From a virus (lineage: Duplodnaviria; Caudoviricetes): a stretch of DNA of 64,000 bases. The stretch spans positions 13,102 through 77,101 of IMG/VR virus record IMGVR_UViG_3300023070_000001; one strand, 5' to 3'. The first letter of the stretch is position 1, and each line of letters begins with the position of its first letter. Below, piece by piece: positions 2,271-10,888 of the stretch. Below the pieces are notes generated by a model. The model was not told where the DNA came from. It saw only the letters and a program-made list of their open reading frames with translations, and ran no database searches. Position numbers and translations under genes: made by a program.

Positions 2271-2694
2271 AGTCGTAGAACCTACTTCCACCTGATGCTG
2301 CATTAAGAATGCGCTCTACAGTTGCAAAAATAGGCTTAGGTAGATTATAGATTGAATGCCACTTCCAGCTCTCTACCTTATCGGGCTCCATAACTTCAGG
2401 AACACCACCATCATAATAAGCTACCATACCAATATCGATATAGTGCTTGGGATAGTACTCGATGAGGTTGATTACTGAAACAACATGAAGACCACTGTAC
2501 TTTACACTAGAGCCAAGTTCCTCTTCAAGCTCACGCTCAGCACAAGCCTGGAAACTTTCATTAAATTCAAGGTGTCCCCCAGGAAGAGCCCACTGGCCTT
2601 CACCATGAGATCCCTTACGCTTACCCAGAAGAATACGATCCTCTCGGTCGATAAGTGCTACACCTACGCCAACCTTAGTAATGTTATCTGTCAT
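2263..2694 (-). CDS. Nudix hydrolase (MutT/NUDT15-like)
   Basis: Nudix box GGHLEFNESFQACAERELEEELG. Confidence 0.92.
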   Translation of the reverse strand: MTDNITKVGVGVALIDREDRILLGKRKGSHGEGQWALPGGHLEFNESFQACAERELEEELGSSVKYSGLHVVSVINLIEYYPKHYIDIGMVAYYDGGVPEVMEPDKVESWKWHSIYNLPKPIFATVERILNAASGGSRFYDCA

Positions 2695-2700
2695 GCTCTC

Positions 2701-2729
2701 ATCCTAGTAGAGTCACACAAGTCTGTCAA
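2701..2729 (-). promoter_or_regulatory. SigA-type promoter, leaderless Nudix mRNA
   Basis: TTGACA-N17-TAGGAT-N6-ATG. Confidence 0.85.
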
Positions 2730-9181: not shown

Positions 9182-9258
9182 TGGTGGATCGAGTGGGATT
9201 CGAACCCACGACCAATGGATTAAGAGTCCACTGCTCTATACCGCTGAGCTACCGATCC
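9182..9258 (-). tRNA. tRNA-Lys(CUU), CCA encoded
   Basis: GTGGA-CT-CTT-AA-TCCAT. Confidence 0.96.
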
Positions 9259-9346: not shown

Positions 9347-9709
9347 TGGTGCCGTGGAAATTTTCAGATCAGCAAGAGCTTAAGTTAACTGACCCTATAT
9401 TCTAGACCGCATTATCGTTACCCACAGCTATAACAATCTAGAAGCTTAGCATAAATCGTAACACGGACTCCCACCGTTAGTCTAGCACACTTTCCCAGAT
9501 CCAAGATTTATGTATGTTAGAGTACATCTAGCACATTAGCATTTAATTAGCGCCCACATGGACAAGTAACTTACTGTGTACTCTAAATCTGTAAGAGTAA
9601 AGTGAAAGGAATTGAACCTTTCCAGCGGGTGCCCCCAATTTGGCTTAGCCTTAGTACCATACCTAAGCAGGAATCGAACCTGTTACTGCCATTTACTTCA
9701 CTCTTTACG
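9347..9709 (-). ncRNA. ~360-nt structured non-coding insert between tRNA-Ala and tRNA-Val (tRNA-like modules)
   Basis: No minus-strand ORF of note; two TTC(G/A)ATT T-arm hairpins, several long stems, 3' CCACGGC-A-CCA. Confidence 0.55.
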
Positions 9710-9782
9710 TGGAACCGGACGGATTCGAACCGTCATCCTCCTGATTGCAAAACAGGCGCTCTACCGTTGGAGCTACGATCCC
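9710..9782 (-). tRNA. tRNA-Ala(UGC)
   Basis: G3.U70; loop TT-TGC-AA; U31.U39. Confidence 0.95.
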
Positions 9783-9786
9783 ATAA

Positions 9787-9844
9787 TGTAAGTGGGCCGT
9801 CACCGCCAGGTGTCTGAGCTATGTACTCAGGAACATCACTTACA
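9787..9844 (-). ncRNA. Promoter-proximal stem-closed leader RNA L2
   Basis: TGTAAGTG...CACTTACA; internal CTGAG/CTCAG and CACC/GGTG hairpins; ends 4 nt before tRNA-Ala. Confidence 0.6.
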
Positions 9845-9850
9845 TCTACT

Positions 9851-9879
9851 ACCTTACACCATGTCTTACAGGCTGTCAA
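9851..9879 (-). promoter_or_regulatory. SigA-type promoter P2
   Basis: TTGACA-N17-TAAGGT. Confidence 0.85.
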
Positions 9880-9887
9880 GTACTTAT

Positions 9888-10097
9888 TTAGTCCTCGTCA
9901 GCCATGTTGTCATCCCAGCACTTACTGTCAACACCCGTAATCAGAAGTTCACGAGTATCAGCGGATAGCCCAGGAAAGGCAACCTGCACAAACTCACCTG
10001 ATTTCCACTTGTTAAAGCCATCCTCAGGTAGGTCGATCTTCTTCGACTTACCACAGAACATACACTTCTTAGTGGTGTAGCTTACTGTCTTGGTCAT
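9888..10097 (-). CDS. Hypothetical Zn-binding protein (leaderless)
   Basis: CMFCG; ATG 6 nt after the -10. Confidence 0.7.
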   Translation of the reverse strand: MTKTVSYTTKKCMFCGKSKKIDLPEDGFNKWKSGEFVQVAFPGLSADTRELLITGVDSKCWDDNMADED

Positions 10098-10264: not shown

Positions 10265-10888
10265 TTACTCTACTGTGGAGCCTTCGTCAACGGGGTAGAC
10301 ATCATAAATCTTGAAGTTCTCATGAACCTTGCTAGCGGTAGGGCCGCTCTGGTTTTGGTAGTGCGAGCCAGCAAATCTAGATCCATAAAGAATAGTAGAT
10401 GGCTGAGGTAGCTTGAAAAAGCATAACTGAGCAATCTTCATTCCAGGATACAATAGGATTGGTGTAGTACCGTTATTAGATAATTCTAGTGTAACAGTTC
10501 CCTCAAACCCTGGATCGATAAAGCCAGCAGTCGAGTGAATTTGTAAACCTAATCTACCTAAACTTGACTTACCTTCACACCTTGCAGTTATATTAGCTCC
10601 TAAAGCAATAGCCTCATGAGTTGAAGCGAGAATAAAGCTATCAGGCTTTATCTCAATAGCTGAACCCTTGGGTACGGTAACAGCTTGGAAATGATTAGAG
10701 CTATCTACTTTAGGATCTATTACATCATTGAAGGCTAGGTAATCAGGGTGAGTACGCCTCTGTACTAAAAATTCGCAGCTCAGAGTTACATCATAACTAG
10801 ATGGCTGCATTAATTCAGGATGGAAGGGCTCTATGACAATATTGTCAAATCGCTTCTCTTCTAAGATATCTCTATTAGATAATAGCAC
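10265..10888 (-). CDS. dcd: dCTP deaminase
   Basis: QPSSYDVTL, EGKSSLGRLGLQIHSTAGFIDPGFEG, TLELSN. Confidence 0.95.
   Translation of the reverse strand: MLLSNRDILEEKRFDNIVIEPFHPELMQPSSYDVTLSCEFLVQRRTHPDYLAFNDVIDPKVDSSNHFQAVTVPKGSAIEIKPDSFILASTHEAIALGANITARCEGKSSLGRLGLQIHSTAGFIDPGFEGTVTLELSNNGTTPILLYPGMKIAQLCFFKLPQPSTILYGSRFAGSHYQNQSGPTASKVHENFKIYDVYPVDEGSTVE

What the first reader, a model, noticed from the sequence alone, without database searches (positions are those of the whole stretch)
9591..9708. tRNA-like RNA with two T-loops inside a long closing stem
Seen: GTA(A)AGAGTGAAGT pairs with ACTTTACTCTTAC (13 bp with one bulge). A T-arm, GAAAGG-TTCAATT-CCTTTC, stacks directly on the 3' strand, as in an acceptor/T coaxial helix. 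A second T-arm, CAGG-TTCGATT-CCTG, and CTTAG/TAAG and GGG-GGCA-CCC hairpins replace the D and anticodon arms. There is no anticodon and no CCA. Inference: a tRNA-elbow mimic (compare YrlA-type Y RNAs), possibly a decoy for tRNA-targeting toxins or modifying enzymes.
Basis: partly seen in the sequence, partly recalled or inferred. Interest (0 to 1): 0.7.

Follow-up and report, generated by a model that had tools for sequence, protein, structure and literature searches.

The report
Phage tRNA mimic with two T-arms
The 118-base fold is a real, conserved RNA gene in a phage tRNA operon: it belongs to an undescribed, apparently phage-only family of anticodon-less tRNA look-alikes with two T-arms, whose upper half is built like the tRNA-like end of tmRNA and whose function is untested.

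Summary
Observation confirmed. It starts right after tRNA-Ala, inside a 21-tRNA array of an uncultured tailed phage. ARAGORN and Rfam 15 do not call it.

It is neither chance nor tRNA debris. A divergent relative (L003) keeps the fold through compensatory changes. Pattern scans and two covariance models placed it in a family of 36 distinct sequences from phage contigs, metagenomes and one cultured phage (Limnohabitans phage DC31, where it is unannotated). Across the family 89% of pair cells are paired, against 66% in shuffles, and 26 of 28 pairs show double changes. A model built without the window type still finds the element (49.7 bits).

The shared plan is an acceptor-like stem, AAAUGG, a short helix P2 enclosing T-arm 1, a GUAUGGUAC hairpin and a tetraloop hairpin, then T-arm 2. 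The upper half has tmRNA-TLD topology. Most 'open' relatives carry G3:U70, A73 and an encoded CCA. The window copy is a 'closed' variant with a 13-bp stem and no CCA.

It is not a YrlA, tmRNA or tRNA member. Function is inferred only: a non-decoding mimic of the tRNA upper half. The scan had noted other anticodon-less phage tRNA mimics, but not this two-T-arm family.

The parts
9591..9708 (-). Whole element (118 nt RNA; RNA position p = 9709 - window coordinate)
   Evidence: R1 scores it 68.7 bits. R2, built without the window type, scores it 49.7 bits at 9593-9701.
9695..9708 (-). P1 5' strand. The distal extension GUAA(A)GA is also the spacer after tRNA-Ala. The proximal 7 nt GUGAAGU (9695-9701) equal the acceptor 5' strand of the family.
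   Evidence: pair probability 0.9-1.0. L003 carries three double compensatory changes in the proximal 7 bp.
9591..9603 (-). P1 3' strand: ACUUUAC (9597-9603, acceptor-like, with G.U at the third pair) plus UCUUAC, which pairs with the leader.
   Evidence: helix 1 is 97% paired in the family, and all 7 pairs show double changes.
9689..9694 (-). AAAUGG, a single-stranded D-loop analogue with no D stem. It sits in the same place as AUUCUGG, AACGG or CAAUGG in tmRNA TLDs.
   Evidence: UGG is invariant in the A-type alignment A5. DS6A has CAAUGG. In this copy it can alternatively pair with GCCA at 9641-9644.
9685..9688 (-). P2 5' strand, CAG(U).
   Evidence: It pairs with (G)CUG at 9623-9626. The family has GAG/CUC, GGG/CCC, GAGG/CCUC and GAGC/GCUC. 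RNAalifold predicts it independently on A5.
9623..9626 (-). P2 3' strand, (G)CUG, directly abutting T-arm 2.
   Evidence: Forcing P2 costs only 1.3 kcal/mol relative to the MFE.
9668..9682 (-). T-arm 1: CAGG-UUCGAUU-CCUG.
   Evidence: The stem covaries in the family: at the third pair, GC 16, AU 12, UA 5, CG 3.
9650..9667 (-). P3 hairpin carrying GUAUGGUAC. This is either a D-loop-like 7-8 nt loop or a UGG triloop on a GUA/UAC stem.
   Evidence: It follows T-arm 1 with no linker.
9637..9649 (-). Insertion specific to the window type (GCUAAGCCAAAUU). It may pair with UGGC of the AAAUGGC segment.
   Evidence: Alignment A3. MFE and pair probabilities are 0.5-0.83. It is conserved in L003, and L393 has one C-to-U change that keeps the pairing.
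9627..9636 (-). P4: a 3-bp hairpin with a GNNN tetraloop (GGG-GGCA-CCC).
   Evidence: The family has NNC-GACG-GNN with covariation (GGC/GCC, UGC/GCA, GCC/GGC, GUC/GAC, UCC/GGA). L003 and DC31 have a GAUA loop.
9604..9622 (-). T-arm 2: GAAAGG-UUCAAUU-CCUUUC, stacked on P1.
   Evidence: Helix 6 is 98% paired and 4 of 5 pairs show double changes. L003 has a two-sided 1-bp deletion.
9709..9782 (-). tRNA-Ala(UGC), directly upstream in the same transcription direction.
   Evidence: ARAGORN. Rfam tRNA 63.2 bits.
9517..9586 (-). Second conserved hairpin downstream (UUAGAGUACA ... UGUACUCUAA). It is possibly part of the same transcript and is not part of the family core.
   Evidence: It is conserved in L003 with one G-C to A-U double change. 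The fold is weak, z about -1.

Best explanation
The element is a genuine small-RNA gene, transcribed with the phage's tRNAs on the minus strand.

It belongs to a phage-specific family of anticodon-less tRNA mimics. Their upper half (acceptor-like stem, stemless AAAUGG 'D-loop', short helix P2, T-arm stacked on the acceptor) has the topology of the tRNA-like domain of tmRNA. In place of an anticodon arm, P2 carries a compact three-hairpin module: a second T-arm, a GUAUGGUAC hairpin and a GNNN-tetraloop hairpin. That gives two T-loops and two UGG segments, so potentially two tRNA 'elbows'.

Shown here: the fold, its conservation and covariation, family membership, its tRNA-like position in tRNA arrays, and its absence from cellular genomes by one strict motif scan.

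Inferred:
- It is cut out of the operon transcript by the tRNA-processing enzymes.
- Both T-loops are good TrmA/TruB substrates.
- It acts as a non-decoding mimic that occupies or titrates a host factor reading the tRNA upper half or elbow. Candidates are SmpB/EF-Tu as for TLD-only tmRNAs, RNase P, T-loop enzymes, or a tRNA-directed defence nuclease.

The 'open' relatives, with a 7-bp stem, mostly G3:U70, A73 and CCA, are probably alanylated. The window copy is a 'closed' variant whose leader and trailer extend the stem to 13 bp. It therefore probably works without being charged, unless RNase P and 3' trimming open it.
For: - Fold: MFE z = -3.0 and minus-strand specific.
- Relative L003: three double compensatory changes in proximal P1, a paired but different distal P1, and a two-sided indel in T-stem 2.
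- Family of 51 hits, 36 distinct, scoring above 42 bits. Ordinary tRNAs score no more than about 35 bits.
- Covariation: 89.4% of cells paired against 66.5% shuffled and 40-52% in slid controls. 26 of 28 pairs show double changes.
- RNAalifold on an unfitted MAFFT alignment recovers P1, P2, both T-arms and P4.
- Leave-out model R2 finds only this site in the window: 49.7 bits, E about 1e-11.
- Pair 3:70 is G.U in 12 of 16 A-type sequences, with A73 and mostly CCA.
- Members sit 1-10 nt from flanking tRNAs on the same strand.
- No member is among the 7 motif hits in 185,579 genomes.
- Rfam has nothing for the window element or for 6 relatives.
- The DS6A TLD-only tmRNA shares the acceptor-CAAUGG-P2-T-arm plan. 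A TLD-only RNA is reported to inhibit tmRNA whether or not it is chargeable (PMC4131195, PMC11915505, citing Mao 2009).
Against: - There are no expression, end-mapping, modification or binding data.
- The window type has no free CCA end, and L003 lacks G3:U70, so charging cannot be the shared function.
- The tmRNA motifs around P2a (UUCGAC/GGAC) are not present, so SmpB binding is unsupported.
- No conserved protein neighbour points to a partner.
- Several motifs (T-loop 1, UAUGGUA, AAAUGG) were used to retrieve relatives, so their apparent invariance is partly circular. Alignment A4 is fitted to the model.
- In this copy an alternative inner pairing (UGGC/GCCA) is slightly more stable than P2.
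Confidence: 0.5

Rival explanations
1. Processing punctuation or end-protection element. The tRNA-like fold exists mainly so that RNase P, RNase Z or exonucleases cut or stop there. This would shape the 3' end of tRNA-Ala and the 5' end of the downstream RNA, like t-elements and tRNA punctuation. It would have no trans-acting role.
For: The element starts 1-2 nt after tRNA-Ala. Family members occupy tRNA-like slots 1-10 nt from neighbours. The leader and trailer pair in the window type. T4 has unexplained stable RNAs in the same position after tRNA-Arg. Earlier scan notes read other phage mimics this way.
Against: A cleavage signal needs only an acceptor/T-arm minihelix. Here a second T-arm, the invariant GUAUGGUAC hairpin and a covarying tetraloop hairpin are also conserved. 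The open forms also keep G3:U70, A73 and CCA. Adjacent tRNAs in these arrays are processed without such spacers.
Confidence: 0.22
2. The window copy itself is opened by RNase P at G8 and by 3' trimming, receives CCA, is charged (G.U at the third pair), and acts as a tag-less mini-tmRNA. It would either rescue stalled ribosomes or block host trans-translation.
For: The proximal 7 bp begin 7 nt after tRNA-Ala, the usual spacing. This copy has G.U at pair 3. The phage's own tRNAs also lack encoded CCA. Open relatives look chargeable. There is precedent in the DS6A TLD-only RNA (PMC4131195).
Against: The closest relative L003 has U-A at pair 3 and C73. The discriminator here is U, not A. Leader-trailer pairing is conserved in L003, L411, L401 and L044, which argues for a closed end. 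There is no SmpB gene on the contig. The Rfam tmRNA models give only E 0.36-1.1 partial matches.
Confidence: 0.13
3. A YrlA-type Y RNA that tethers an Rsr (Ro60) protein to an effector.
For: It has a long closing stem with one bulge, a T-arm followed by a stem-loop, and a size of about 118 nt. YrlA RNAs are known in phages (PMC4201824).
Against: There is no Rfam match. No TROVE or RtcB gene is on the contig. There is no GNCGAA(N)G motif. T-arm 2 stacks on the closing stem as on an acceptor stem, which is a different topology. Open relatives end in ACCA.
Confidence: 0.04
4. Non-functional debris of two decayed or fused tRNA genes.
For: It has two T-arm sequences with tRNA consensus loops, inside a tRNA array where duplication and decay are common. 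One relative (L152/L251) looks degenerate in its 5' part.
Against: There is compensatory covariation in all six helices across 36 distinct sequences from many environments. A fixed architecture is shared by phages that have no other sequence similarity. A leave-out model detects it.
Confidence: 0.03

Closest known systems
tRNA-like domain of tmRNA, especially the TLD-only (CDS-less) form of mycobacteriophage DS6A (JN698994 28478-28560; PMC4131195, PMC11915505 citing Mao et al. 2009)
   Same: Both have an acceptor stem followed by a stemless xAAUGG segment, then a helix P2, and a T-arm stacked on the acceptor. Neither has an anticodon. Both are phage-encoded. Most open relatives have G3:U70, A73 and CCA.
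   Different: DS6A has one T-arm and a plain 6-bp P2 with a loop. It scores only 29.5-30.8 bits on the family models, which is the tRNA range. The family has a second T-arm plus two more hairpins on P2 and lacks the UUCGAC/GGAC tmRNA motifs. The window copy has a closed 13-bp stem and no CCA.
YrlA-type bacterial and phage Y RNAs (PMC4201824)
   Same: Both are tRNA-mimicking non-coding RNAs of similar size with a real T-arm, likely tRNA-type modifications, and a long terminal stem.
   Different: YrlA lies next to rsr, carries GNCGAA(N)G in its stem, and its terminal stem corresponds to the anticodon stem with a looped-out acceptor. None of these was found here.
Phage T4 small stable RNAs rnaD (species 2, 119 nt) and rnaC (species 1, 139 nt)
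   Same: Both are stable RNAs of unknown function encoded directly after a tRNA in a phage tRNA cluster. rnaC ends in a T-arm plus an acceptor-like strand.
   Different: There is no sequence or model similarity: rnaC scores 18.7 bits and rnaD gives no hit. T4 has no second T-arm and no AAAUGG or GUAUGGUAC motif.
Canonical tRNA
   Same: Both have an acceptor/T-arm coaxial stack, the T-loop consensus, a place in tRNA arrays, and the same strand and spacing as tRNA genes.
   Different: The element has no D stem, no anticodon arm and no variable region. It is not called by ARAGORN or by the Rfam tRNA model.

Membership tests
Two-T-arm phage tRNA-mimic family (defined here, models R1/R2) | Order P1 - (A)AAUGG - P2 - T-arm 1 - GUAUGGUAC hairpin - small tetraloop hairpin - P2' - T-arm 2 - P1' | tested here: met
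   R1 68.7 bits. R2, built without window-type sequences, gives 49.7 bits with E about 1e-11 and no other window hit.
Two-T-arm phage tRNA-mimic family (defined here, models R1/R2) | 7-bp acceptor with a free N73-CCA end (the open form) | tested here: not met
   The window has a 13-bp closed stem and the tail UCUUAC. It shares this with L003, L411, L401 and L044 as a closed subtype.
tmRNA | G3:U70 acceptor, A73 and a CCA end (alanine charging) | tested here: inconclusive
   G.U is present at the third proximal pair here. However, the discriminator is U, no CCA is encoded, and L003 has U-A. 12 of 16 open relatives have G3:U70.
tmRNA | mRNA-like domain with a resume codon and tag ORF, plus pseudoknots | tested here: not met
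   The element is 118 nt with no ORF. ARAGORN calls no tmRNA. The Rfam tmRNA models give only partial matches at E 0.36-1.1.
tmRNA | TLD topology: stemless D-loop analogue, P2, and a T-arm on the acceptor | tested here: met
tmRNA | Binding of SmpB | not testable with these tools
   No SmpB gene is on the contig. The host's SmpB is unknown.
YrlA / Y RNA | Encoded next to an rsr (TROVE) gene | tested here: not met
   There is no PF05731 or PF01139 match on the 77-kb contig, which is 57% complete.
YrlA / Y RNA | GNCGAA(N0-1)G motif in the terminal stem, and the order T - acceptor-like loop - D with the terminal stem at the anticodon position | tested here: not met
   The motif is absent from the sequence. 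T-arm 2 abuts the 3' strand of the terminal stem. There is no Rfam hit.
tRNA | Cloverleaf with a D arm and an anticodon arm | tested here: not met
   ARAGORN and Rfam RF00005 do not call it.
T4 species 1/2 RNAs | Sequence or structure similarity to rnaC/rnaD | tested here: not met
   R1 gives 18.7 bits on rnaC and nothing on rnaD.

The most novel reading that the evidence does not exclude
These RNAs form a new phage-specific class of 'double-elbow' tmRNA-TLD-like molecules. The open forms would be alanylated and enter or block the host's SmpB/EF-Tu ribosome-rescue pathway. The closed forms, such as the window copy, would use the same two-T-loop core to sequester a tRNA-elbow reader such as RNase P, a T-loop enzyme or a tRNA-directed defence nuclease. 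This would be an RNA-only counter-measure carried inside phage tRNA arrays.
Probability: 0.25. Interest if true: 0.85.

Novelty: new variant of a known kind. Interest (0 to 1): 0.66.

Why it matters
Large phage tRNA arrays are usually explained by codon supply or by replacing tRNAs cut by host defences. A conserved, covarying RNA in those arrays that cannot decode but keeps two complete T-arms, and in many relatives alanine identity and CCA, points to another use of tRNA mimicry by phages.

The family is invisible to ARAGORN, Rfam 15 and GenBank annotation. It is unannotated in the cultured Limnohabitans phage DC31. That phage and its cultured Limnohabitans host make the family experimentally testable.

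It also extends the single reported 'TLD-only' phage RNA (DS6A) to a structurally richer and widespread group.

Tried and rejected
- Rfam: the gathering scan of the whole window and the E<=10 scan of 9350-9900 gave only tRNAs and chance partial hits. Six relatives also have no Rfam match.
- blastn of 9400-9900 against 50,697 phage records hit only tRNA-Ala.
- Exact 19-mer scan of IMG/VR: 3 loci, one of them unrelated.
- The pattern AAGTA..TGG..T-loop was too unspecific. The first metagenome pattern found nothing.
- Genome-collection scan: 7 motif hits, none a family member. They lie in a stretch shared by several Bacteroidota genomes.
- Rsr, RtcB and SmpB genes on the contig: none.
- Conserved protein neighbours within 4 kb of 31 members: none shared across subtypes.
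- Sigma-70 promoter scan: none. The only 'terminator' call is T-arm 2 itself.
- Microbacterium phage Magritte, the nearest cultured relative by DNA polymerase at 37% identity, has no member.
- Considered and dropped: a permuted tRNA, a tRNA with an intron, tRNA-Sec or allo-tRNA, and T-arm 1 as an anticodon arm (CGA). The loop is a fixed T-loop consensus in every member.
- Literature searches for two-T-arm or anticodon-less phage RNAs found no description of this family.

Full report
**Where it lies.** The window is part of a 77-kb IMG/VR phage contig, about 57% complete. It encodes DNA polymerase, helicases, a portal protein and tail fibre-like proteins. The nearest cultured relative by DNA polymerase is Microbacterium phage Magritte at only 37% identity. 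ARAGORN finds 21 tRNA genes, all on the minus strand. The finding lies on that same strand. Its RNA begins 1-2 nt after tRNA-Ala(UGC) at 9709-9782 and runs from 9708 down to 9591.

**The observation.**
- P1 has 13 bp, with one bulged A and one G.U.
- T-arm 2 (GAAAGG-UUCAAUU-CCUUUC) directly abuts the 3' strand of P1.
- T-arm 1 is CAGG-UUCGAUU-CCUG.
- A CUUAG/CUAAG hairpin and a GGG-GGCA-CCC hairpin are present.

The minus-strand MFE is -37.4 kcal/mol (z = -3.0, 0 of 200 shuffles as good). The plus strand gives z = -1.5. Two complete T-loop motifs at this spacing occur only here in the window and never in shuffles. Neither ARAGORN nor any of 4227 Rfam models calls the element, even at E up to 10. 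The missing CCA is uninformative, because only 2 of the 21 tRNAs encode CCA.

**Relatives of the window type.** An exact 19-mer scan found a near-identical contig (L002) and a divergent one (L003). In L003 the element again follows an Ala-type tRNA. The differences from the window are as follows.
- The proximal 7 bp of P1 change from GUGAAGU/ACUUUAC to AAUAAGU/ACUUAUU, which is three double compensatory changes.
- The distal leader-trailer pairing is kept with different letters.
- T-stem 2 loses one pair on both sides.
- The P4 loop changes from GGCA to GAUA.

A metagenome variant (L393) has one C-to-U change that preserves pairing.

**A wider family.** Motif scans of IMG/VR and of metagenomes returned many loci with the same order of parts. 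From 15 of them I built model R1. A search of held loci gave 51 hits above 42 bits, 36 of them distinct, while ordinary tRNAs reach at most about 35 bits.

The common plan is:
- P1, a 7-bp acceptor-like stem.
- AAAUGG.
- P2, 3-4 bp: GAG/CUC in most members and CAG/CUG in the window.
- T-arm 1.
- A hairpin carrying GUAUGGUAC.
- P4, a 3-bp hairpin with a GNNN tetraloop, commonly GACG.
- P2', which directly abuts T-arm 2.
- P1'.

Pair counts on the family alignment show 89.4% of cells paired, against 66.5% in shuffles and 40-52% when partners are slid. 26 of 28 pairs have double changes, and every helix covaries. That alignment is fitted to the model, so two independent checks matter.
- RNAalifold on a plain MAFFT alignment of 16 'open' members recovers P1, P2, both T-arms and P4 on its own.
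- Model R2, built from those 16 with no window-type sequence, finds exactly 9593-9701(-) at 49.7 bits (E about 1e-11). It finds nothing else in the window.

The element is therefore a true member of a selected RNA family, not the debris of two tRNAs.

**Open and closed forms.** The 'open' members are about 95-100 nt and have a 7-bp stem. Pair 3:70 is G.U in 12 of 16, position 73 is A in nearly all, and most encode CCA. This is the alanine-identity signature shared with tmRNA. Other members, including the window, L003, L411, L401 and the L044 group, extend the stem to 9-20 bp and have no CCA. One variant (L402) has three T-arms.

Whatever the core does, it is shared by chargeable-looking and non-chargeable forms. 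The window copy happens to keep G.U at the third proximal pair, but L003 does not. I do not claim alanylation for the window copy.

**Context.** Members sit like tRNA genes, on the same strand and typically 1-10 nt from flanking tRNAs of varying identity. A few subtypes occur without nearby tRNAs. No protein family recurs next to them.

One cultured phage has an open member: Limnohabitans phage DC31, at PQ492658 46508-46602, directly after its tRNA-Met. It is unannotated there. A strict motif scan of one genome from each of 185,579 bacterial and archaeal species gave 7 hits, none of which the model accepts. By this test the family is phage-specific.

**Comparison with known RNAs.**
- *tmRNA TLD.* The upper half has the topology of the tmRNA tRNA-like domain. 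The TLD-only RNA of mycobacteriophage DS6A reads acceptor GGGGCCG, then CAAUGG, a 6-bp P2, a T-arm, then CGGCUCC-ACUA. It scores only 29.5-30.8 bits, so it is an analogue and not a member. A TLD-only molecule is reported to inhibit tmRNA whether or not it can be charged, perhaps by titrating SmpB (PMC4131195, PMC11915505, citing Mao et al. 2009).
- *YrlA.* Membership fails on gene neighbourhood, motif and topology (PMC4201824).
- *T4.* Its two unexplained stable RNAs sit in the same place after tRNA-Arg. rnaC has one T-arm, but there is no model similarity.

**Inner fold of this copy.** The window type has a 13-nt insertion between P3 and P4. In the MFE, GCCA of that insertion pairs with UGGC of the AAAUGGC segment. 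Forcing the family's P2 instead costs only 1.3 kcal/mol. Covariation favours P2 at the family level, but the two window-type sequences cannot decide between them.

**Mechanism.** The fold, selection, family membership, tRNA-like placement and phage restriction are shown. The rest is inferred.
- Maturation would be by the tRNA-processing enzymes.
- Both T-loops fit the T-loop consensus (G53-C61, U54, U55, C56, R57, A58), so they should be modified like tRNA.
- Each T-loop may dock one of the two UGG segments, giving two elbows.
- The RNA cannot decode.
- I consider a trans-acting mimic of the tRNA upper half, occupying a host factor, the most likely role.
- The main rival is a pure processing or punctuation role. 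Against that rival, a minihelix would be enough as a cleavage signal, yet the inner module and the identity elements of the open forms are also conserved.

No expression or binding evidence could be obtained.

**Earlier notes of this scan** describe other anticodon-less, TLD-like phage RNAs and the DS6A and T4 comparisons. Sequence look-ups found no earlier report of this two-T-arm family.

Noticed in passing
window 9517-9586 (-): A second conserved hairpin lies directly downstream of the element (UUAGAGUACA ... UGUACUCUAA, with a conserved ACUUGUCCAUG(U/C)GGGCG inside). L003 keeps it through a G-C to A-U double change. The fold energy is unremarkable (z about -1), and no conserved ORF is present.
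   Followed up: partly
window 9787-9844 (-) and three other sites noted by another first-stage entry: A leader hairpin closed by UGUAAGUG/CACUUACA ends 4 nt before tRNA-Ala. Another note (e1-5898181) describes four such promoter-launched leaders. The element would then lie in the unit leader - tRNA-Ala - element - hairpin.
   Followed up: partly
L003:3373-3443 (-): The Ala-type tRNA upstream of the L003 element has G3:U70 and anticodon UGC, but two U.U mismatches in its acceptor stem. ARAGORN does not call it.
   Followed up: no
window, all 21 tRNA genes: Only 2 of 21 tRNAs encode CCA. ARAGORN's called 3' end is a C after the discriminator base in 20 of 21. The exception, tRNA-Lys at 9182-9258, ends in a full CCA. 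The element's proximal stem is likewise followed by U-C.
   Followed up: partly
L402:881-1016 (+): A family member with three T-arms: an extra GGCGGUUCGACUCCGC hairpin is inserted after the GUAUGGUAC hairpin. Its acceptor is G3:U70-like and it ends in ACCA.
   Followed up: no
L260:2226-2318 and 2617-2709 (+); L044/L185/L401: A subtype has a 16-20-bp closing stem (AUAUAUGAAGUGGG...). It occurs away from tRNA genes and is present twice, 391 nt apart, on one contig.
   Followed up: no
L048, L017, L042, L062, L077, L070 (coordinates): Further two-T-arm, anticodon-less elements sit in phage tRNA arrays. They score 36-39 bits and lack the GUAUGGUAC hairpin. They may be more distant relatives or independent inventions.
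   Followed up: partly
L408, L398, L420-L424: A stretch shared by several Bacteroidota genomes matches the AAATGG..T-loop..TATGGTA motif by chance. It is not a family member (best R1 score 25 bits).
   Followed up: yes
window 10265-10888 (-): A dCTP deaminase/dUTPase-like gene (PF22769, E 4.5e-42) lies inside the tRNA array, between tRNA-Ala and tRNA-Cys.
   Followed up: no
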